Below, piece by piece: positions 48-10,353 of a DNA stretch of 13,638 nt (position 1 is the first letter of the stretch; each line of letters starts with the position of its first letter). Both the position numbers and the translations under genes were made by a program. Origin of the DNA: a virus (lineage: Duplodnaviria > Heunggongvirae > Uroviricota > Caudoviricetes); IMG/VR virus record IMGVR_UViG_2531839476_000010; one strand, 5' to 3'. The notes beneath the pieces were generated by a model. It was not told where the DNA came from. It worked only from the letters and a program-made list of their open reading frames with translations, and searched no databases.

Positions 48-725
48 ATGTCCATCATTTTTAATGGACACTATCGTATGAAACACCGGACCTGGATCAC
101 TGAAGCTTTACGTCTTCACTTTGAAGAACATTTACCCCGGGTTGTGGCCGGGCGTCGCCTGGGTGTACCAAAATCAACAGTTTGTAGTATGTTCGTGCGC
201 TTTCGGAGAGCTGGCCTTTCGTGGCCTTTGCCCGCAGGCATGTCGGAGCAGGAACTTGATGCCTGCCTTTACGGACAATTTTCCACGGTACCAGTCGTAC
301 GTCCTGAAAGCACCGTTATATCCGAAGCCCCCGTGGTAAAAAAACGTCCCCGGCGGCCCAACTTCCCTTATGAGTTTAAAATCGCCTTAGTGGAGCAGTC
401 ACTGCAGCCCGGAGCCTGTGTGGCGCAGATCGCCCGGGAAAACGGAATCAACGATAACCTGCTCTTCAACTGGCGCCATCAATACCGGAAAGGTGGCCTG
501 CTGCCTTCCGGAAAAAATATGCCGGCACTGCTTCCCGTGACGTTAACGCCGGAGCCGGATAATAAAATCCCGGCCCCCGCACAGGAACCAGAGCAGATAA
601 ATACACCGTCCGACAGTCTGTGTTGTGAGCTGGTTCTGCCGGCCGGAACTCTCAGGCTTAAAGGTAAACTGACGCCGGCGTTATTACAGACACTTATCCG
701 CGAAATAAAAGGGAGCAGCCACTGA
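48..725 (+). CDS. tnpA: IS66-family accessory protein (orf1/TnpA-like), start codon uncertain
   Basis: C-terminal ~130 aa (PNFPYEFKIALVEQSLQPGACVAQIARENGINDNLLFNWRHQYRKGG...) resembles IS66 orf1 HTH proteins. At 225 aa the ORF is longer than the ~130-150 aa I expect, so the true start may be an internal Met (e.g. 79) or the N-terminal part is an extra HTH domain. Stop overlaps the orf2 start by 1 nt (TGATG). Confidence 0.65.
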   Translation: MSIIFNGHYRMKHRTWITEALRLHFEEHLPRVVAGRRLGVPKSTVCSMFVRFRRAGLSWPLPAGMSEQELDACLYGQFSTVPVVRPESTVISEAPVVKKRPRRPNFPYEFKIALVEQSLQPGACVAQIARENGINDNLLFNWRHQYRKGGLLPSGKNMPALLPVTLTPEPDNKIPAPAQEPEQINTPSDSLCCELVLPAGTLRLKGKLTPALLQTLIREIKGSSH

Positions 726-1072
726 TGATATCTCTCCCTGCAGGTTCGCGTATCTGGCTGGTTGCAGGTATCACCGATATGCGAAATGGCTTTAACGGCC
801 TGGCATCAAAAGTTCAGAACGTCCTGAAGGATGACCCGTTCTCCGGACACCTGTTCATCTTCCGCGGACGCCGGGGTGACCAGATAAAAGTGTTGTGGGC
901 TGACAGTGACGGACTGTGCCTCTTCACCAAACGCCTGGAGCGGGGCCGCTTCGTCTGGCCAGTCACCCGTGACGGCAAGGTGCACCTTACTCCGGCTCAG
1001 TTATCCATGCTTCTTGAAGGTATCAACTGGAAGCACCCGAAACGAACGGAACGCGCTGGAATCCGCATATAA
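725..1072 (+). CDS. tnpB: IS66-family TnpB (orf2) accessory protein
   Basis: 115 aa; translation MISLPAGSRIWLVAGITDMRNGFNGLA...LFIFRGRRGDQIKVLWADSDGLCLFTKRLERGRFVWP matches the conserved IS66 Orf2 family as I recall it; position and size fit. Confidence 0.9.
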   Translation: MISLPAGSRIWLVAGITDMRNGFNGLASKVQNVLKDDPFSGHLFIFRGRRGDQIKVLWADSDGLCLFTKRLERGRFVWPVTRDGKVHLTPAQLSMLLEGINWKHPKRTERAGIRI

Positions 1073-1091
1073 CCCGTTGTAAAGTGAGGAT

Positions 1092-2663
1092 ATGGACACC
1101 TCACTTGCTCATGAGAACGCCCGCCTGCGGGCACTGTTGCAGACGCAACAGGACACCATCCGCCAGATGGCTGAATACAACCGCCTGCTCTCACAGCGGG
1201 TGGCGGCTTATGCTTCCGAAATCAACCGGCTGAAGGCGCTGGTTGCGAAACTGCAACGTATGCAGTTCGGTAAAAGCTCAGAAGAACTTCGTGCAAAAAC
1301 CGAACGGCAGATACAGGAAGCACAGGAGCGAATCAGCGCACTTCAGGAAGAAATGGCGGAAACGCTGGGTGAGCAATATGACCCGGTACTGCCATCCGCC
1401 CTGCGCCAGTCTTCAGCCCGTAAACCGTTACCGGCCTCACTTCCCCGTGAAACCCGGGTTATCCGGCCGGAAGAGGAATGCTGTCCTGCCTGTGGTGGTG
1501 AACTCAGTTCTCTGGGATGTGATGTGTCAGAGCAACTGGAGCTTATCAGCAGCGCCTTTAAGGTTATCGAAACACAACGTCCGAAACAGGCCTGTTGCCG
1601 GTGCGACCATATCGTGCAGGCACCAGTACCTTCAAAACCCATTGCACGCAGTTATGCCGGAGCGGGGCTTCTGGCCCATGTTGTCACCGGGAAATATGCA
1701 GACCATCTGCCGTTATACCGCCAGTCAGAAATATACCGTCGTCAGGGAGTGGAGCTGAGCCGTGCCACACTGGGGCGCTGGACAGGTGCTGTTGCTGAAC
1801 TGCTGGAGCCGCTGTATGACGTCCTGCGCCAGTATGTGCTGATGCCCGGTAAAGTCCATGCTGATGATATCCCCGTCCCGGTCCAGGAGCCGGGCAGCGG
1901 TAAAACCCGGACAGCCCGGCTGTGGGTCTACGTCCGTGATGACCGTAACGCCGGTTCACAGATGCCCCCGGCGGTCTGGTTCGCGTACAGTCCGGACCGG
2001 AAAGGTATCCATCCACAAAATCACCTGGCCGGTTACAGCGGTGTGCTTCAGGCCGATGCTTACGGTGGTTACCGGGCGTTATACGAATCCGGCAGAATAA
2101 CGGAAGTCGCGTGTATGGCTCATGCCCGGAGAAAAATCCACGATGTGCATGCAAGAGCGCCCACCTACATCACCACGGAAGCCCTGCAGCGTATCGGTGA
2201 ACTGTATGCCATCGAGGCAGAGGTCCGGGGCTGTTCAGCAGAACAGCGTCTGGCGGCAAGAAAAGCCAGAGCCGCGCCACTGATGCAGTCACTGTATGAC
2301 TGGATACAGCAACAGATGAAAACACTGTCGCGTCACTCAGATACGTCAAAAGCGTTCGCATACCTGCTGAAACAGTGGGATGCACTGAACGTGTACTGCA
2401 GTAATGGCTGGGTGGAAATCGACAACAACATCGCAGGGAACGCCTTACGGGGAGTGGCCGTAGGCCGGAAAAACTGGATGTTCGCGGGTTCCGACAGCGG
2501 TGGTGAACATGCGGCGGTGTTGTACTCGCTGATCGGCACATGCCGTCTGAACAATGTGGAGCCAGAAAAGTGGCTGCGTTACGTCATTGAACATATCCAG
2601 GACTGGCCGGCAAACCGGGTACGCGATCTGTTGCCCTGGAAAGTTGATCTGAGCTCTCAGTAA
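1092..2663 (+). CDS. tnpC: IS66-family transposase (orf3/TnpC)
   Basis: 523 aa; N-terminal coiled-coil/leucine-zipper-like region, CxxC...CxxC zinc-finger-like motif (CPACGG...CCRCDH), then the transposase core, as typical of IS66 transposases. RBS GTGAGGA upstream of the ATG. Confidence 0.9.
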
Positions 2664-2735: not shown

Positions 2736-3140
2736 ATGATTTCATGGATAGCGTCCACCATATTTGGTGTCCACTATTCTCTCAGGAATTTCAGGATCTG
2801 CCAGACGGTGCTGAGACGACGCTTACGGATAAATAATTACCCGGATAAGATTACTGTTACTGTGGCACTGGAAATTGGTGGGTATCCGTCACTGTTGTTG
2901 CCATATGTGGCGATTAGTCTTGACCGTACTGAAGGTGCCACGCTGGAGTTTTACGAAGCTGAGGCGAAAAAGCAGGCGAAGCAGTTTTTCATGGATGTTG
3001 CTGCCGGGTTATGTGAAGGGGATGGTCCGTTGCCGGAAAAGCGGCCCATCATTTTAGAGGCGCAGGATGTGTTGATAACCTACAGAGGAAAACTACCGGG
3101 AATAATTACTGGTTCTCTGAAGACTCCACCGCTGGCCTGA
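2736..3140 (+). CDS. Hypothetical protein; possibly a C-terminal fragment of a gene disrupted by the IS insertion
   Basis: 134-aa ORF from the track. Its first ~30 codons overlap the second IS-end-like sequence, so the native gene, if any, likely begins downstream or was truncated. No family recognised; not holin-like (no transmembrane segments). Confidence 0.3.
   Translation: MISWIASTIFGVHYSLRNFRICQTVLRRRLRINNYPDKITVTVALEIGGYPSLLLPYVAISLDRTEGATLEFYEAEAKKQAKQFFMDVAAGLCEGDGPLPEKRPIILEAQDVLITYRGKLPGIITGSLKTPPLA
2803..2826. repeat. Second IS66-end-like sequence (AGACGGTGCTGAGACGACGCTTAC), direct copy 133 bp downstream of the first
   Basis: 17 of 24 positions identical to 2670-2693 when aligned by eye, including the terminal CGCTTAC. 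Could be the true IRR or a solo-end remnant of another IS66 copy. Confidence 0.4.
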
Positions 3141-3190: not shown

Positions 3191-3724
3191 ATGAACGCAA
3201 AAATCAGATACGGCCTGTCGGCTGCCGTTCTGGCGCTGATTGCCGCAGGTGCGCCTGCGCCTGAAATCCTCGACCAGTTTCTGGATGAAAAGGAAGGTAA
3301 CCACACCACGGCATACCGTGATGGCGCGGGTATCTGGACCATCTGTCGCGGTGCCATTCTGGTGGATAGTAAACCTGTCGTCCCGGGCATGAAGTTGTCG
3401 AAGGAGAAATGCGACCAGGTTAACGCCATTGAACGTGATAAGGCGCTGGCATGGGTGGATAAAAACATCAAAGTGCCACTGACCGAACCCCAGAAAGCGG
3501 GGATCGCGTCATTCTGTCCGTACAACATTGGTCCCGGTAAATGTTTCCCGTCGACGTTTTACAGACGAATTAATGCAGGTGATCGCAGGGGAGCGTGTGA
3601 GGCGATTCGCTGGTGGATTAAGGACGGTGGCAGAGACTGCCGTATTCGCTCAAATAACTGTTACGGTCAGGTATCCCGTCGCGACCAGGAGAGTGCGCTG
3701 GCGTGCTGGGGAATTGACAGATAA
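3191..3724 (+). CDS. R: Phage endolysin, T4-lysozyme-type (GH24) with N-terminal signal-anchor-release (SAR) segment
   Basis: 177 aa. N-terminal Ala/Gly-rich weakly hydrophobic stretch (YGLSAAVLALIAAGAPAP) followed by a Glu-x8-Asp-x5-Thr catalytic arrangement (KEGNHTTAYRDGAGIWTICRG). Closely resembles the R lysozymes of 933W/21-type lambdoid phages as I remember them. Confidence 0.9.
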   Translation: MNAKIRYGLSAAVLALIAAGAPAPEILDQFLDEKEGNHTTAYRDGAGIWTICRGAILVDSKPVVPGMKLSKEKCDQVNAIERDKALAWVDKNIKVPLTEPQKAGIASFCPYNIGPGKCFPSTFYRRINAGDRRGACEAIRWWIKDGGRDCRIRSNNCYGQVSRRDQESALACWGIDR

Positions 3725-4022: not shown

Positions 4023-4517
4023 ATGAACCGCGTACTGTGCGTGGTCATCATTGCCCTGCTGGTGGCCTGTGGTGCGCTTAGTCTGGGGCTGAATCATTAC
4101 CGTGATAACGCCATAACCTACAAAGAGCAGCGCGATAAAAAAGTCAGTGAGCTGGAGCTGGCAAATGCAACCATTACTGATATGCAGCAGCGCCAGCGTG
4201 ATGTTGCTGCACTTGATGCCAGATACTCGAGGGAATTAGCCGATGCGAGAGCTGAAAATGAAACTCTTCGCGCTGACGTTGCCGCTGGTCACCGCAGCCT
4301 GCGGATCAACGCCACCTGTCCAGGTCCCGTGCGTGAAGCCACCGGCACCGCCCGCGTGGATAATGCAACCGGCCCCCAACTGGCAGACACCGTTACACGG
4401 GATTATTTCACCCTCAGAGAGCGGCTGATGACGATGCAGAAGCAACTGGAAGGGGCACAGGACTATATCCGCACTCAGTGTACTAAGCAGGCTTTTTATT
4501 ATCCGGAGGATGTATGA
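4023..4517 (+). CDS. Rz: Rz i-spanin (inner-membrane spanin subunit)
   Basis: 164 aa; N-terminal TM helix then ...NHYRDNAITYKEQRDKK...DMQQRQRDVAALDARYSRELADARAENETLRADVAAG...RDYFTLRERLMTMQKQLEG, near-collinear with lambda Rz as I recall it. Confidence 0.92.
   Translation: MNRVLCVVIIALLVACGALSLGLNHYRDNAITYKEQRDKKVSELELANATITDMQQRQRDVAALDARYSRELADARAENETLRADVAAGHRSLRINATCPGPVREATGTARVDNATGPQLADTVTRDYFTLRERLMTMQKQLEGAQDYIRTQCTKQAFYYPEDV
4243..4428 (+). CDS. Rz1: Rz1 o-spanin (outer-membrane lipoprotein) embedded in the +1 frame of Rz
   Basis: 61 aa; lipoprotein signal with lipobox (LVTAA|C), proline-rich mature part ...CVKPPAPPAWIMQPAPNWQTPLHGIISPSE matching lambda Rz1 (CVKPPPPPAWIMQPPPDWQTPLNGIISPSE). 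Classic embedded-gene architecture. Confidence 0.88.
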   Translation: MRELKMKLFALTLPLVTAACGSTPPVQVPCVKPPAPPAWIMQPAPNWQTPLHGIISPSESG

Positions 4518-4738
4518 AGAAATTGCAGGTAACGGTAAAACCTTTTCAGGGAACAATTCCGTTCCGTGTTTTGCAACATGGCCGTGTTCTGCTTGAAGAG
4601 GTGTTCAGAGGTAAATGCACTGAATGTTATTCACGAACATATGAAGTGAATGCCACGCATGAAGAATTCACCGTTGAGTGTGTGATGAATACTGATAAAT
4701 GCCGAATGGTATCCGCTGAATTACAGCCAGTGTGTTGA
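4514..4738 (+). CDS. Hypothetical small Cys-rich protein, translationally coupled to Rz
   Basis: 74 aa; ATG overlaps the Rz stop (ATGA at 4514-4517); GGAGG 4 nt upstream. Contains CxxC (CTEC) and a further Cys pair (ECVMNTDKC); no signal peptide. AT-richer than flanking phage genes. No family recognised. Confidence 0.5.
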   Translation: MKKLQVTVKPFQGTIPFRVLQHGRVLLEEVFRGKCTECYSRTYEVNATHEEFTVECVMNTDKCRMVSAELQPVC

Positions 4739-5045
4739 GCGACCTTATTATCCATGCGCGGTATTGTCGCCGTATTCCTGCATTAACAGAGACCGCAGCC
4801 CGACAGGGAGACTCCTCTGCGAGAGTGTGCGGGGATAATCAAAAACGATACACACCGGGGTTTACCGCGTAAACGGAGCGCGGCGTTGTCCCCTCATGGT
4901 CGCTGGTCCGGTGCGATGGTGGAAGAAACCGGACGATGTGTTACCTCGCAAACTCTGTTATGTCATGTGTCTGATTTGTGATTTAAGTCGGATAATTGTC
5001 ATTGCCATTAAGCAGAGGATTGATGACCGACAGGGCTGCATTGTT

Positions 5046-5062
5046 AGAATAAGACTTATTCT
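5046..5062. promoter_or_regulatory. Perfect 8-1-8 palindrome AGAATAAG-A-CTTATTCT, ~20 bp upstream of the lipoprotein ATG; candidate operator
   Basis: Read directly. It overlaps a -10-like hexamer TAGAAT (5045-5050). A 1-nt spacer cannot form an RNA hairpin loop, so it is more consistent with a site for a dimeric DNA-binding protein. Confidence 0.3.
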
Positions 5063-5082
5063 TATCTATGCCGGGAATAAAA

Positions 5083-5409
5083 ATGAAAAGAAATCTTCCG
5101 TTAATTATTTTGTTGTCTTCTTTGGTTATGGGCTGTACGCAACATAAAACAGATATGCCTCGACAGTTGGTTAAGGCATTACCACAATATCCGGCCTATG
5201 CCGCGGCAAATTATATAAAGGGACGGGTTGATGTGAAGTTTGATATTGGTGCTGATGGTACTGTCACCCGAATTGAGTTTATCCGTTCAGAGCCGCACCA
5301 TCTGTTTGATGAGCAGGTTGTAAAGGCGATGGCAAAATGGCGATTTGAGAAGGACAAGCCGCGTAAAGGCGTGAAGAAAACATTTATCTTTAGTCCTTCA
5401 GCACCCTGA
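5083..5409 (+). CDS. Lipoprotein with TonB C-terminal-like domain (moron gene)
   Basis: Start taken at the second ATG (5083), giving signal MKRNLPLIILLSSLVMG|C with Cys+1 and Thr+2. Mature region QYPAYAAANYIKGRVDVKFDIGADGTVTRIEFIRSEP...VVKAMAKWRFE aligns by eye with E. coli TonB C-terminal domain (QYPARAQALRIEGQVKVKFDV.PDGRV...AMRRWRY). No TonB N-terminal anchor or Pro-rich spacer. AT-rich relative to the head genes. Confidence 0.7.
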   Translation: MKRNLPLIILLSSLVMGCTQHKTDMPRQLVKALPQYPAYAAANYIKGRVDVKFDIGADGTVTRIEFIRSEPHHLFDEQVVKAMAKWRFEKDKPRKGVKKTFIFSPSAP

Positions 5410-5865
5410 TTATTTTATCAGAAGTTAATTATCACTCTGTTGCTATTCAGTACATCCCTGCAGGGTAAAGTCTTGTTTCGCCGGATATGAAGATGAAATA
5501 TTGTTAGAAGACAGTAGCTACCGGTTCCTGTAACCGAACGTTCATTTCTCGTTATTTTTCATGCTGGCCGGGCGCAGGTGCTTTGCATCTGTTGCCAGCC
5601 TTCTCCTGCAGGCTTCAATAACCCATGCCGAAAAATTACCCGATCCCTTACGTTCAAGGGCAATATGGATTTGATTAATCATCTGGTTTGGGAAGCTTTA
5701 TTTTTTGATGACATTGTGTTTTTCCGTGTTCAGTGCTGCTGATTTGTATTGTCTTAAGATGTCTTTACGTTAAGTTGACACAGATCAATTAATGCATGAC
5801 TTGGACAAAATTGATTATTTGTCGTGGTTTTATGGTGTACGTGGGATGTGTGATGGTATTTATAT

Positions 5866-5888: not shown

Positions 5889-6100
5889 TGGATCCTTTCC
5901 GGCGATCCGGCAGGCTACGGGGCGGCGACCTCGCGGGTTTTCGCTATTTATGAAAATTTTCCGGTTTAAGGCGTTTCCGTTCTTCTTCGTCGTAACTTAA
6001 TGTTTTTATTTAAAATACCCCCTGAAAAGAAAGGAAACGACAGGTGCTGAAAACGAACTTTTGGGCCTTTGTCGTTTCCTTTCTCTGTTTTTGGCCGTGG
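5889..6100 (+). other. cos: Lambda-type cos site: cosQ-like segment, cosN with 12-nt cohesive end at 5920-5931, cosB with three CGTTTCC-type terminase-binding repeats
   Basis: GGGCGGCGACCT at 5920-5931 followed by CGCGGGTTTTCGCTATTTATGAAAATTTTCCGG..., nearly identical to the lambda left end as I remember it. CGTTTCC at 5972-5978 and 6073-6079, inverted copy GGAAACG at 6033-6039, AT-rich stretch between (IHF-site position in lambda). Nu1 ATG follows 189 nt after the cohesive-end start. Confidence 0.85.

Positions 6101-6654: not shown

Positions 6655-10333
<3,679 letters not shown>

Positions 10334-10353
<20 letters not shown>

What the first reader, a model, noticed from the sequence alone, without database searches (positions are those of the whole stretch)
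5083..5409. Moron lipoprotein with a TonB C-terminal-like domain between the lysis cassette and cos: candidate TonB-mimic exclusion factor
The ORF pairs a lipoprotein signal peptide (MKRNLPLIILLSSLVMG|C) with a domain whose motifs line up with the C-terminal, TonB-box-binding domain of TonB, but it lacks TonB's membrane anchor and proline-rich spacer. It sits where lambda carries bor, in an AT-rich island with its own promoter-like sequence and an upstream palindrome. A periplasmic lipid-anchored TonB C-domain could act as a decoy that engages the TonB boxes of outer-membrane transporters (FhuA, BtuB, FepA and others) or competes with TonB, blocking TonB-dependent phages and colicins or altering siderophore uptake. 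I do not recall a characterised prophage protein of this architecture, but I cannot exclude that it is already annotated.
Basis: partly seen in the sequence, partly recalled or inferred. Interest (0 to 1): 0.72.

Follow-up and report, generated by a model that had tools for sequence, protein, structure and literature searches.

The report
Prophage lipoprotein carrying a TonB C-domain
A small prophage gene between the lysis genes and cos encodes an outer-membrane lipoprotein that is only the receptor-binding end of TonB; it is common in E. coli and already annotated, but I found no study of its function, which is most plausibly to block TonB-dependent entry of phages and colicins.

Summary
Window 5083-5409 (+) encodes a 108-aa protein with a lipoprotein signal peptide (LVMG|C, Thr at +2) followed after about 7 residues by a complete TonB C-terminal domain. 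Pfam TonB_C scores 57 bits against a cutoff of 24.6. The predicted fold superposes on TonB in the BtuB:TonB complex at 1.0 Å. The gene lies in an AT-rich, roughly 650-bp replaceable cassette between Rz/Rz1 and cos.

The gene itself is not new. RefSeq calls it 'TonB family protein', and phage 21 carries a 70%-identical allele. The two alleles occur in 415 and 1225 of 5426 complete E. coli genomes.

New here: it belongs to a distinct subfamily of motor-less, exported TonB C-domains found on prophages, plasmids and chromosomes of Enterobacterales, under purifying selection (dN/dS 0.13). It is not a tonB fragment. A Serratia relative sits in a conserved three-gene unit with a colicin immunity gene and a colicin bearing a TonB-box-like motif.

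The decoy or exclusion function is plausible (confidence about 0.45). It has a precedent in engineered periplasmic TonB fragments but is untested, and I found no functional study. The claimed promoter and palindrome are not above chance and are not conserved.

The parts
5083..5409 (+). CDS of the 108-aa lipoprotein with a TonB C-terminal domain (stop codon included)
   Evidence: Identical to RefSeq WP_000828067.1 'TonB family protein' at 100% DNA identity in NZ_CP027544.
5083..5136 (+). Signal peptide and lipobox (residues 1-18, MKRNLPLIILLSSLVMG|C). Cys18 is the predicted lipidated first residue, and Thr at +2 predicts outer-membrane sorting.
   Evidence: The lipobox pattern matches in the window protein, in all 80 IMG/VR copies, and in 15 of the 16 Cys-bearing relatives at 35-70% identity. 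The sixteenth (P0040) has an LSAC box that the strict pattern misses. The sorting rule is established knowledge, not tested here.
5158..5394 (+). TonB C-terminal domain (residues 26-104, predicted alpha-beta-beta-alpha-beta)
4934..5587 (.). Replaceable cassette that carries the gene. A related prophage with the same Rz and Nu1 (L119) has about 900 bp of unrelated DNA here.
   Evidence: blastn break points. GC 38-43%.
4754..5082 (+). Upstream segment that accompanies the gene in every TonB_C-bearing phage compared (L001, L118, phage 21, PhiR47_2). It holds the only promoter-like site.
   Evidence: All four share the left junction at 4754/4755. Conserved islands at about 4907-4929 and 5039-5054 against phage 21.
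5023..5050 (+). Sigma-70 promoter-like site ATGACC-16-TAGAAT with TG. Weak: not above chance.
   Evidence: The -10 part, TGTTAGAAT, is retained as TGTCAGAAT in phage 21.
5046..5062 (.). Palindrome AGAATAAG-A-CTTATTCT overlapping the -10. Best Fur-box match in the region is 13 of 19.
   Evidence: The right arm is not conserved in phage 21. A match of 13 or more of 19 arises in 5% of shuffles.
5210..5237 (-). Antisense promoter-like site inside the gene (TTCACA-16-TATAAT, 11 of 12). It lies at the same codon position in the phage 21 allele.
   Evidence: It could be a by-product of the conserved ANYIKG coding sequence.
5542..5682 (-). DUF3950 (YlcI/YnfO family) small gene, the usual neighbour on the cos side
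5920..5931 (+). cos cohesive-end sequence GGGCGGCGACCT (exact lambda match)
4023..4517 (+). Rz i-spanin, with the Rz1 o-spanin embedded at 4243-4428. This is the end of the lysis cassette.
   Evidence: Pfam Phage_lysis 162 bits. The Rz1 translation has a lipobox and a Pro-rich tail.

Best explanation
[quoted passage not shown] There it faces the periplasmic side of TonB-dependent transporters.

The proposed mechanism is that it pairs its exposed beta3 edge with TonB-box strands of transporters such as FhuA, BtuB, FepA and Cir, or with the TonB boxes of incoming group B colicins. It may alternatively bind TonB's own C-domain. Because it is not coupled to ExbB-ExbD it cannot energise anything. 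It would therefore occupy the sites that TonB needs and lower TonB-dependent entry of competing phages, colicins and microcins, at some cost in siderophore and B12 uptake.

Shown here: the ORF, lipobox, domain and fold; its cassette-like mobility; purifying selection; and its wide distribution.

Inferred: export and lipidation, outer-membrane location, TonB-box binding, and the exclusion phenotype.

The gene is co-oriented with the late operon, so it is presumably made during lytic growth. Expression from the repressed prophage is not shown.
For: 1. Complete TonB_C domain and fold, closest to TonB as seen bound to BtuB and FhuA. The core and aromatic residues Y163, P164, F180, G186, F202, W213 and F230 are kept, and Y215 is replaced conservatively by Phe.

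2. A lipobox with a non-Asp +2 residue is conserved down to 35% identity across Escherichia, Klebsiella, Rahnella and Sodalis homologues.

3. dN/dS is 0.13 between the window allele and the phage 21 allele, with dS near saturation. All 80 of the 80 best IMG/VR copies are intact.

4. It is a discrete cassette found in phages with different lysis and packaging modules, on plasmids and in chromosomal islands. This fits a stand-alone accessory function.

5. Precedent: overexpressed periplasmic TonB domain inhibited iron import by TonB-dependent transporters (Howard et al. 2001, as summarised in PMC9841981). From my own knowledge, not checked here, that study also reported reduced phi80 and colicin M sensitivity.

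6. In Serratia, a 32-34% identical exported TonB_C-only protein lies 67 bp upstream of, and co-oriented with, a colicin E1-type immunity gene. That gene faces a ColA-like pore-forming colicin whose N-terminus carries a conserved DSMTV TonB-box-like motif. The three genes recur in four different chromosomal and plasmid contexts, and orphan copies also occur.

7. The phage 21 lineage carrying the gene also carries sitABCD, a TonB-independent Fe/Mn importer that could offset a cost in iron uptake.
Against: - No experiment on this protein was found in ten literature searches.
- PADLOC has no model matching it.
- TonB Q160 is Leu or Tyr here, and R166 (the FhuA Glu56 contact) is Tyr throughout the subfamily. 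The binding specificity may therefore differ from TonB.
- No promoter above chance and no terminator were found, so expression in lysogens, which a superinfection-exclusion role needs, is unproven.
- Chromosomal copies in Raoultella and Klebsiella sit in an ordinary-looking locus (lacZ-lacI ... glycine-zipper lipoprotein-TonB_C-DUF1440) and suggest a housekeeping envelope role for some members.
- The Serratia proteins are cleaved by signal peptidase I rather than lipidated, and are only about 33% identical. Their colicin also has a ColA-type TolA-binding region, so the partner could belong to the Tol system rather than the Ton system.
- The sit linkage lies within one near-clonal prophage lineage and is not independent evidence.
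Confidence: 0.45

Rival explanations
1. Host-fitness or envelope moron unrelated to exclusion. The outer-membrane-anchored TonB-like domain would bind another periplasmic partner, such as peptidoglycan, an outer-membrane protein or a signalling domain. It would alter envelope properties, iron signalling or serum/host interactions, as the neighbouring lipoprotein Bor does.
For: - It lies in the same accessory slot as bor and coexists with bor in phage 21.
- Chromosomal, non-prophage orthologues in Raoultella and Klebsiella sit beside a glycine-zipper lipoprotein and a DUF1440 membrane protein. The Klebsiella phage also carries a DUF1440 gene nearby.
- The receptor-contact residues Q160 and R166 are not kept.
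- Subfamily-specific motifs (YPxYAxAN, SEPxHLFD) differ from TonB.
Against: - The only binding mode documented for this fold in the solved structures returned is strand addition to TonB-box-type or Tol-box-type peptides.
- No partner is suggested by conserved gene neighbourhood in the phages.
- The Serratia colicin linkage points to import systems.
Confidence: 0.25
2. Late-function accessory of the phage itself. It would be made with the lysis genes and act at the outer membrane during or after lysis. It could be a spanin-like or lysis-modulating factor, or it could neutralise receptors on debris so that progeny are not lost, as Llp does for T5.
For: - It is co-oriented with, and immediately downstream of, holin-endolysin-Rz/Rz1 in E. 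coli, Rahnella, Sodalis and Klebsiella phages.
- No independent promoter or terminator was demonstrated.
- PHROG 1267, which it matches end to end (E=3e-42), is labelled 'Rz-like spanin'.
Against: - These phages already have complete Rz/Rz1 pairs.
- The fold has nothing in common with spanins, so the PHROG label is probably carried over from position and lipoprotein character.
- Homologues occur on plasmids, in chromosomes and at colicin loci with no lysis genes.
- The gene stays intact in a window whose terminase and portal read as frameshifted.
Confidence: 0.15
3. Non-functional relic: a captured 3' fragment of host tonB, as in the old annotation 'partial tonB-like membrane protein', carried along passively.
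For: - Historical annotation.
- Truncated and frameshifted variants exist in some genomes.
Against: - dN/dS is 0.13.
- A lipoprotein signal peptide was acquired and is conserved.
- 80 of 80 viral copies are intact.
- It is closer to other small lipoproteins (46-56%) than to any enterobacterial TonB C-domain (38-42%).
- It is present in about 8% plus about 23% of complete E. coli genomes.
Confidence: 0.03

Closest known systems
TonB (E. coli energy transducer), C-terminal domain residues about 150-239; structures 1U07, 2GSK (with BtuB), 2GRX (with FhuA)
   Same: - Same domain family and fold: 41% identity over the domain, rmsd 1.0 Å.
- The structural core and aromatic cluster are kept.
- The beta3 strand that pairs with TonB boxes is present.
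   Different: - No N-terminal transmembrane anchor for coupling to ExbB/ExbD and no proline-rich spacer. A lipoprotein signal peptide takes their place.
- Q160 and R166 are not conserved, and the C-terminal tail after beta3 is shorter.
- It forms a separate subfamily with its own motifs.
Engineered periplasmic TonB fragments (Howard, Herrmann, Stratilo & Braun 2001, J Bacteriol 183:5885)
   Same: A TonB C-terminal portion placed in the periplasm without its membrane anchor. It is reported to inhibit TonB-dependent import (summarised in PMC9841981). This is the mechanism proposed here.
   Different: Those were artificial, soluble, overproduced fragments of TonB itself. The protein here is a natural, diverged, lipid-anchored paralogue on a phage. 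I could not read the original paper.
Phage superinfection-exclusion lipoproteins that silence FhuA: T5 Llp, and Cor of phi80, N15 and HK022
   Same: A small phage-encoded outer-membrane lipoprotein acting from the periplasmic side on a TonB-dependent transporter to block other phages. The Llp description is in the abstracts returned. Cor is from my own knowledge.
   Different: - No sequence or fold relationship: the Pfam scan at E<=1 gave only TonB_C and TonB_2.
- Llp and Cor are receptor-specific, whereas a TonB C-domain would in principle act on many transporters.
- Different genome position.
Lambda Bor / Iss lipoprotein
   Same: A small outer-membrane lipoprotein moron in the Rz-to-cos region of lambdoid phages.
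   Different: Unrelated sequence, opposite strand, and it coexists with the TonB_C gene in phage 21 and PhiR47_2.
Serratia exported TonB_C protein in the unit TonB_C / ColE1-type immunity / ColA-like colicin (RefSeq 'TonB family protein', e.g. WP_165366317.1)
   Same: A small, exported, motor-less TonB C-domain on mobile DNA, 32-34% identical to the window protein.
   Different: It has a signal peptidase I site rather than a lipobox. It is tied to a bacteriocin locus rather than a prophage. I found no study of it either.

Membership tests
TonB energy transducer (TonB proper) | N-terminal transmembrane anchor that couples to ExbB/ExbD | tested here: not met
   The protein has 108 aa. Its only hydrophobic segment is the cleavable lipoprotein signal peptide, residues 1-17. 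NCBIfam TonB equivalog models score 50-74 bits against cutoffs of 265-448, matching only their C-terminal 70-85 positions.
TonB energy transducer (TonB proper) | Proline-rich periplasm-spanning spacer | tested here: not met
   Seven residues (TQHKTDM) separate Cys18 from the start of the domain.
TonB energy transducer (TonB proper) | C-terminal TonB_C domain | tested here: met
   PF03544 57.2 bits against a cutoff of 24.6. TIGR01352 57.1 against 27.1.
Pfam TonB_C (PF03544) domain superfamily | Alpha-beta-beta-alpha-beta fold superposable on solved TonB C-domains | tested here: met
   AlphaFold model with block-mean pLDDT 94-98 over the domain. Foldseek 1u07_A E=3e-8; 2gsk_B rmsd 1.0 Å, TMt 0.94; TolA domain III only at E>0.04.
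Pfam TonB_C (PF03544) domain superfamily | Binding of a TonB-box strand along beta3 | not testable with these tools
   Complex prediction with a peptide was not possible. The beta3 strand (residues 94-103) is predicted, but binding is only inferred.
Bacterial lipoproteins (Lgt/LspA/Lnt substrates) | Lipobox [LVI][ASTVI][GAS]C at the end of a signal peptide | tested here: met
   LVMG|C matches the PROSITE-type pattern. It is conserved in relatives (LAVGC, LLGC, LSAC and others).
Bacterial lipoproteins (Lgt/LspA/Lnt substrates) | Actual lipidation and outer-membrane sorting (no Asp at +2) | not testable with these tools
   The +2 residue is Thr, Ser or Ala in all lipoprotein members. Sorting is inferred from the +2 rule.
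Moron (independent accessory transcription unit in a phage) | Discrete insertion with deviating composition, present or absent between otherwise similar phages | tested here: met
   Window 4934-5587 is replaced in L119. GC 38-43% against 50-57%. The cassette occurs in phages with different packaging modules.
Moron (independent accessory transcription unit in a phage) | Own promoter and terminator | tested here: inconclusive
   One site matching 9 of 12 with TG, where the count of such sites equals the chance expectation. No terminator after the gene. No matching sites in the phage 21 or Rahnella loci.
Spanins (PHROG 1267 is labelled 'Rz-like spanin') | o-spanin: short Pro-rich outer-membrane lipoprotein paired with an i-spanin and required for outer-membrane disruption | tested here: not met
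   The window has its own Rz (Pfam Phage_lysis, 162 bits) and embedded Pro-rich Rz1. The query is a globular TonB_C domain, and homologues occur away from any lysis genes.
Known anti-phage defence or exclusion systems (PADLOC-DB) | Match to a catalogued defence protein model | tested here: not met
   0 families at E<=1.

The most novel reading that the evidence does not exclude
Motor-less, exported TonB C-domains form an unrecognised class of mobile 'import-blocking' immunity factors in Enterobacterales. They would be carried by lambdoid prophages (present in up to roughly 30% of complete E. coli genomes, counting both alleles), by plasmids, and as a third gene of colicin-immunity modules. They would protect the carrier by capturing the TonB boxes of outer-membrane transporters or of incoming bacteriocins and phage-receptor complexes. 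In the phage 21 lineage they would be paired with the TonB-independent SitABCD importer, which pays the iron cost.
Probability: 0.35. Interest if true: 0.72.

Novelty: new variant of a known kind. Interest (0 to 1): 0.55.

Why it matters
If the decoy function is real, a gene present in a large fraction of E. coli, including EHEC and ExPEC prophages and textbook phage 21, would be a broad-spectrum exclusion and bacteriocin-tolerance factor. It would act on the shared energy-coupling step rather than on a single receptor.

That would bear on phage-therapy host range, since many therapeutic and temperate coliphages use TonB-dependent receptors. It would also bear on colicin and microcin ecology in the gut, on siderophore-antibiotic conjugates that enter through TonB-dependent transporters, and on the interpretation of 'TonB family protein' annotations.

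It would be a natural counterpart to the engineered periplasmic TonB fragments. It would also give structural biologists a stable, motor-free TonB-box binder.

Tried and rejected
- **Fur regulation.** The palindrome overlaps the best Fur-box match, but that match is only 13 of 19. A score this high arises in 5% of shuffles, and the right arm is not conserved in phage 21. I rejected it as evidence and kept it as a lead.
- **Own promoter or terminator.** The scans of the window, phage 21 and the Rahnella prophage gave nothing above chance and nothing conserved on the sense strand.
- **Recent capture of host tonB.** Rejected: the protein is closer to other small lipoproteins than to any TonB C-domain and has subfamily-specific motifs.
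- **Spanin (PHROG label).** Rejected.
- **A shared 74-aa ORF between Rz and TonB_C in E. coli and Rahnella phages.** There is no similarity.
- **First structure prediction.** A 5-sequence alignment gave pLDDT 60, too low to use. I redid it with 18 sequences.
- **The search for related loci with the 13-sequence alignment.** It failed because no conserved stretch was available. I narrowed the alignment.
- **Howard et al. 2001.** The paper could not be read by DOI or PMC id.
- **Sakai locus tag for expression data.** Sp15 does not carry the gene, and I did not pursue it further.
- **Rfam.** Nothing in the window.
- **Literature.** None of the ten searches returned a functional study of this protein or of the Serratia three-gene unit.
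Full report
**1. What is at the coordinates**

Window 5083-5409 (+) is an intact ORF of 108 codons plus a stop. It translates to MKRNLPLIILLSSLVMGCTQHKTDMPRQLVKALPQYPAYAAANYIKGRVDVKFDIGADGTVTRIEFIRSEPHHLFDEQVVKAMAKWRFEKDKPRKGVKKTFIFSPSAP.

Residues 1-18 are a lipoprotein signal peptide: a basic n-region, a hydrophobic core and the lipobox LVMG|C. The +2 residue is Thr. By the established +2 sorting rule this predicts transfer to the outer membrane.

Residues 26-104 are a complete TonB C-terminal domain:
- Pfam PF03544 gives E=2.4e-15 and 57.2 bits against a gathering cutoff of 24.6.
- TIGR01352 gives 57 bits.
- phmmer against PDB sequences aligns residues 24-104 with E. coli TonB 151-231 at E about 1e-16.
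- An AlphaFold model built on 18 homologues has block-mean pLDDT of 94-98 over the domain.
- That model superposes on TonB from the BtuB:TonB complex (2gsk_B) at 1.0 Å with TM 0.94, and on 1u07 and 2grx_C likewise. TolA domain III is a far weaker match.

There is no room for TonB's membrane anchor or proline-rich spacer.

**2. Surroundings**

The window is part of a lambdoid prophage of E. coli. The gene order is as follows.

| Coordinates | Feature |
|---|---|
| 48-2663 | IS66-family element |
| 2736-3140 | DUF1327 gene |
| 3191-3724 | Endolysin |
| 4023-4517 | Rz, with Pro-rich lipoprotein Rz1 embedded at 4243-4428 |
| 4514-4738 | 74-codon ORF |
| 5083-5409 | TonB_C gene |
| 5542-5682 (minus strand) | DUF3950/YlcI-type gene |
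| 5920-5931 | Exact lambda cohesive-end sequence GGGCGGCGACCT |
| from 6109 | Nu1, terminase A, W, portal, protease, D, E |

GC falls to 38-43% between about 4950 and 6150, against 50-57% on either side.

Comparison with a prophage that has the same Rz and Nu1 but no TonB_C gene (L119) shows that window 4934-5587 is a replaceable cassette. Every TonB_C-bearing phage compared shares a left junction at 4754/4755. The same cassette sits in O157:H7 prophages that have a different packaging module, HNH-TerS-TerL.

In phage 21 and PhiR47_2 the gene lies next to bor, which is on the other strand. It is therefore an addition to bor and not a substitute for it.

**3. Regulatory claims**

- The promoter-like site at 5023-5050 (9 of 12 matches, with an extended -10 TG) is one of three sites found where 3.4 are expected by chance.
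- The 8+8 palindrome at 5046-5062 exists. Only its left half, which is the putative -10, is retained in the phage 21 allele.
- The best Fur-box match overlaps the palindrome but scores 13 of 19, a value reached in 5% of shuffles.
- No terminator follows the gene.
- Scans of the phage 21 and Rahnella loci gave no matching sense-strand sites.

The gene is co-oriented with the late operon. It should therefore be transcribed late in lytic growth. Expression in the lysogen is unproven.

**4. It is already annotated and very common**

RefSeq names it 'TonB family protein' (WP_000828067.1, 100% identical DNA). GenBank phage records call it 'protein TonB', 'TonB C-terminal domain protein' (phage 21), 'TonB fragment', or 'partial tonB-like membrane protein encoded within prophage CP-933N'.

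The window allele is in 415 of 5426 complete E. coli genomes, always on the chromosome. The 70%-identical phage 21 allele is in 1225 of 5426. It matches PHROG 1267 end to end, and that PHROG is labelled 'Rz-like spanin'. I consider the label a mislabel: these phages have their own Rz/Rz1, and the fold is TonB_C.

None of the ten literature searches returned a functional study. The phage 21 genome announcement does not mention the gene.

**5. It is not a tonB fragment**

Over the domain, the window protein is 46-56% identical to other small lipoproteins from Klebsiella phage, Raoultella, Sodalis and metagenomes. It is only 38-42% identical to enterobacterial TonB C-domains.

The subfamily has its own motifs. 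It has YPxYAxAN and S-E-P-x-H-L-F-D where TonB has YPARAQAL and AKPANMFERE. The lipobox is kept at 35-45% identity.

Between the window allele and the phage 21 allele, dN/dS is 0.13 with dS of about 1.5. All 80 of the best IMG/VR loci carry an intact 108-aa ORF with the lipobox, in only six protein variants.

An exhaustive search of 1.84 billion representative proteins found at least eleven separate 50%-identity clusters of 105-150-aa lipoprotein TonB_C proteins among the top 150 hits.

**6. Where relatives live**

- Rahnella and Sodalis copies occupy the same prophage slot, after the endolysin or Rz and before the terminase.
- A Klebsiella phage has one after its lysis genes.
- Raoultella and Klebsiella species have a chromosomal copy in a non-prophage locus: lacZ, lacI, glycine-zipper lipoprotein, TonB_C, DUF1440.
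- Other copies are on a plasmid beside ParM/StbA and a Qat defence system, and in a cellulose-synthesis region beside a Tle1-like gene.

The gene is thus a stand-alone accessory gene on mobile DNA.

**7. The Serratia lead**

A 119-aa exported TonB_C-only protein of Serratia has a signal peptidase I site and is 32-34% identical to the window protein. It lies 67 bp upstream of, and on the same strand as, a colicin E1-type immunity gene. A convergent pore-forming colicin follows.

The three genes recur in four different contexts, one chromosomal and three plasmid or plasmid-like. Across these, TonB_C is 82-100% identical, immunity 92-100% and the colicin 73-100%. Orphan TonB_C copies occur at the chromosomal site.

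All four colicins begin MLFN..KF.YHSPDDGDSMTVTGD. The DSMTV segment at residues 18-22 resembles the TonB boxes of group B colicins (DTMVV in ColB, from my own knowledge). It is followed by a region like the TolA-binding part of colicin A (Pfam ColA_N).

An exported copy of the energy transducer's C-domain, co-transcribed with immunity, is what one would expect of a second line of protection that intercepts the colicin's translocation domain. This is association evidence from a distant relative, not proof. I found no description of it in the literature.

**8. Mechanism proposed**

Established knowledge is as follows. TonB energises transport by pairing its beta3 strand with the TonB box of a transporter (review PMC11658791). 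Overproduction of the periplasmic TonB domain inhibits TonB-dependent iron import (Howard et al. 2001, as summarised in PMC9841981).

[quoted passage not shown] This places it where TonB boxes emerge.

The most likely action is competitive occupation of TonB boxes on transporters or on incoming colicins. The result would be resistance or tolerance to TonB-dependent phages, colicins and microcins.

Shown: architecture, fold, selection, mobility. Inferred: export, lipidation, location, binding, phenotype. My confidence is about 0.45.

Caveats:
- TonB Q160 is Leu or Tyr here, and R166 (which contacts FhuA Glu56) is Tyr throughout the subfamily.
- The chromosomal Raoultella and Klebsiella copies hint at a housekeeping role for some members.

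**9. Rivals**

- An envelope or host-fitness moron with a different partner (0.25).
- A late-function accessory of the phage's own lysis or release (0.15).
- A dead tonB fragment (0.03, essentially excluded).

**10. Verdict**

The gene is already annotated, so the novelty lies in three things:
- It belongs to a distinct, selected, mobile subfamily of motor-less exported TonB C-domains.
- It is very common in E. coli.
- It has suggestive links to a colicin module and, in the phage 21 lineage, to the TonB-independent SitABCD importer.

I rate it a new variant of a known kind, with interest 0.55.

Noticed in passing
L103/L104 5001-7510; L108 5001-7447; L113 4001-6498; L114 4001-6547 (Serratia chromosome and plasmids): A conserved three-gene unit: an exported TonB_C-only protein (119 aa, signal peptidase I type), then 67 bp downstream a colicin E1-type immunity gene on the same strand, then a convergent ColA-like pore-forming colicin. 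The colicin N-terminus carries a conserved DSMTV TonB-box-like motif. The unit is found in four different flanking contexts. Orphan TonB_C copies are in L105-L107.
   Followed up: partly
L120 7468-9501 (phage 21, OL657228 21967-24502) and L121 5345-8794 (E. coli O18:H1 prophage next to an icd fragment): Phage 21 and the related prophage beside a partial icd copy in ExPEC carry sitABCD, a TonB-independent iron/manganese ABC importer. It sits in the same genome as the phage-21-type TonB_C allele, which is present in 1225 of 5426 complete E. coli genomes at 99% identity or more. It could compensate for dampened TonB-dependent uptake, but the linkage lies within one near-clonal lineage.
   Followed up: partly
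window 5210-5237 (- strand); L002 2628-2655 (- strand): A strong antisense promoter-like site lies inside the TonB_C gene: 11 of 12 matches in the window, and 10 of 12 with TG in phage 21. It is at the identical codon position in two alleles that are otherwise 72% identical at the DNA level. The surrounding 100 nt are more conserved than the rest of the gene. It could be a by-product of coding conservation or an antisense transcript.
   Followed up: partly
window 8280, 8347, 8743, 9104: Single-base indels, three of them deletions in T or A runs, relative to the 97%-identical prophage L001. They break the large terminase subunit (553-aa ORF against 641 aa in L001) and split the portal gene into two ORFs (8549-9160 and 9094-10353). 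This is either homopolymer sequencing error or a decaying prophage in which the TonB_C gene is still intact.
   Followed up: partly
window 48-2663: A three-ORF IS66-family element (annotated ISCro1-like in matching genomes) lies immediately upstream of the DUF1327 gene and endolysin. No holin gene is visible between it and the endolysin. The Pfam DUF1327 match begins only at residue 32 of the ORF, so the insertion may have disrupted the start of the lysis cassette.
   Followed up: no
PHROG phrog_1267: The PHROG family that this protein matches end to end (E=3e-42) is labelled 'Rz-like spanin'. The members are TonB_C lipoproteins in phages that have their own Rz/Rz1, so the label looks like an annotation error that will spread to new phage genomes.
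   Followed up: yes
L005 5422-7298 and L010 (Raoultella / Klebsiella chromosomes); L003 277-903 (Klebsiella phage): Chromosomal, non-prophage TonB_C lipoprotein genes lie between a glycine-zipper lipoprotein and a DUF1440 (YagU-like) membrane protein, near lacZ-lacI. The Klebsiella phage that carries a TonB_C lipoprotein also carries a DUF1440 gene about 3 kb upstream.
   Followed up: no
window 4907-4972; L002 2346-2483: A short ORF starting ATGGTGGAAGAAAC... is conserved at its 5' end upstream of the TonB_C gene in both alleles. It has 21 codons in the window and 45 in phage 21, where it is annotated as a hypothetical protein. The first 22 nt or so are nearly identical in an otherwise diverged region. 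Its function is unknown.
   Followed up: no
L112 5001-9646 (plasmid-like contig) and L110 5001-7034: Other small TonB_C lipoprotein genes sit next to a Qat anti-phage system (KAP NTPase + QatB) on a ParM/StbA plasmid, and next to a T6SS Tle1-like lipase gene inside a cellulose-synthesis cluster. These are defence- or competition-type neighbourhoods.
   Followed up: no
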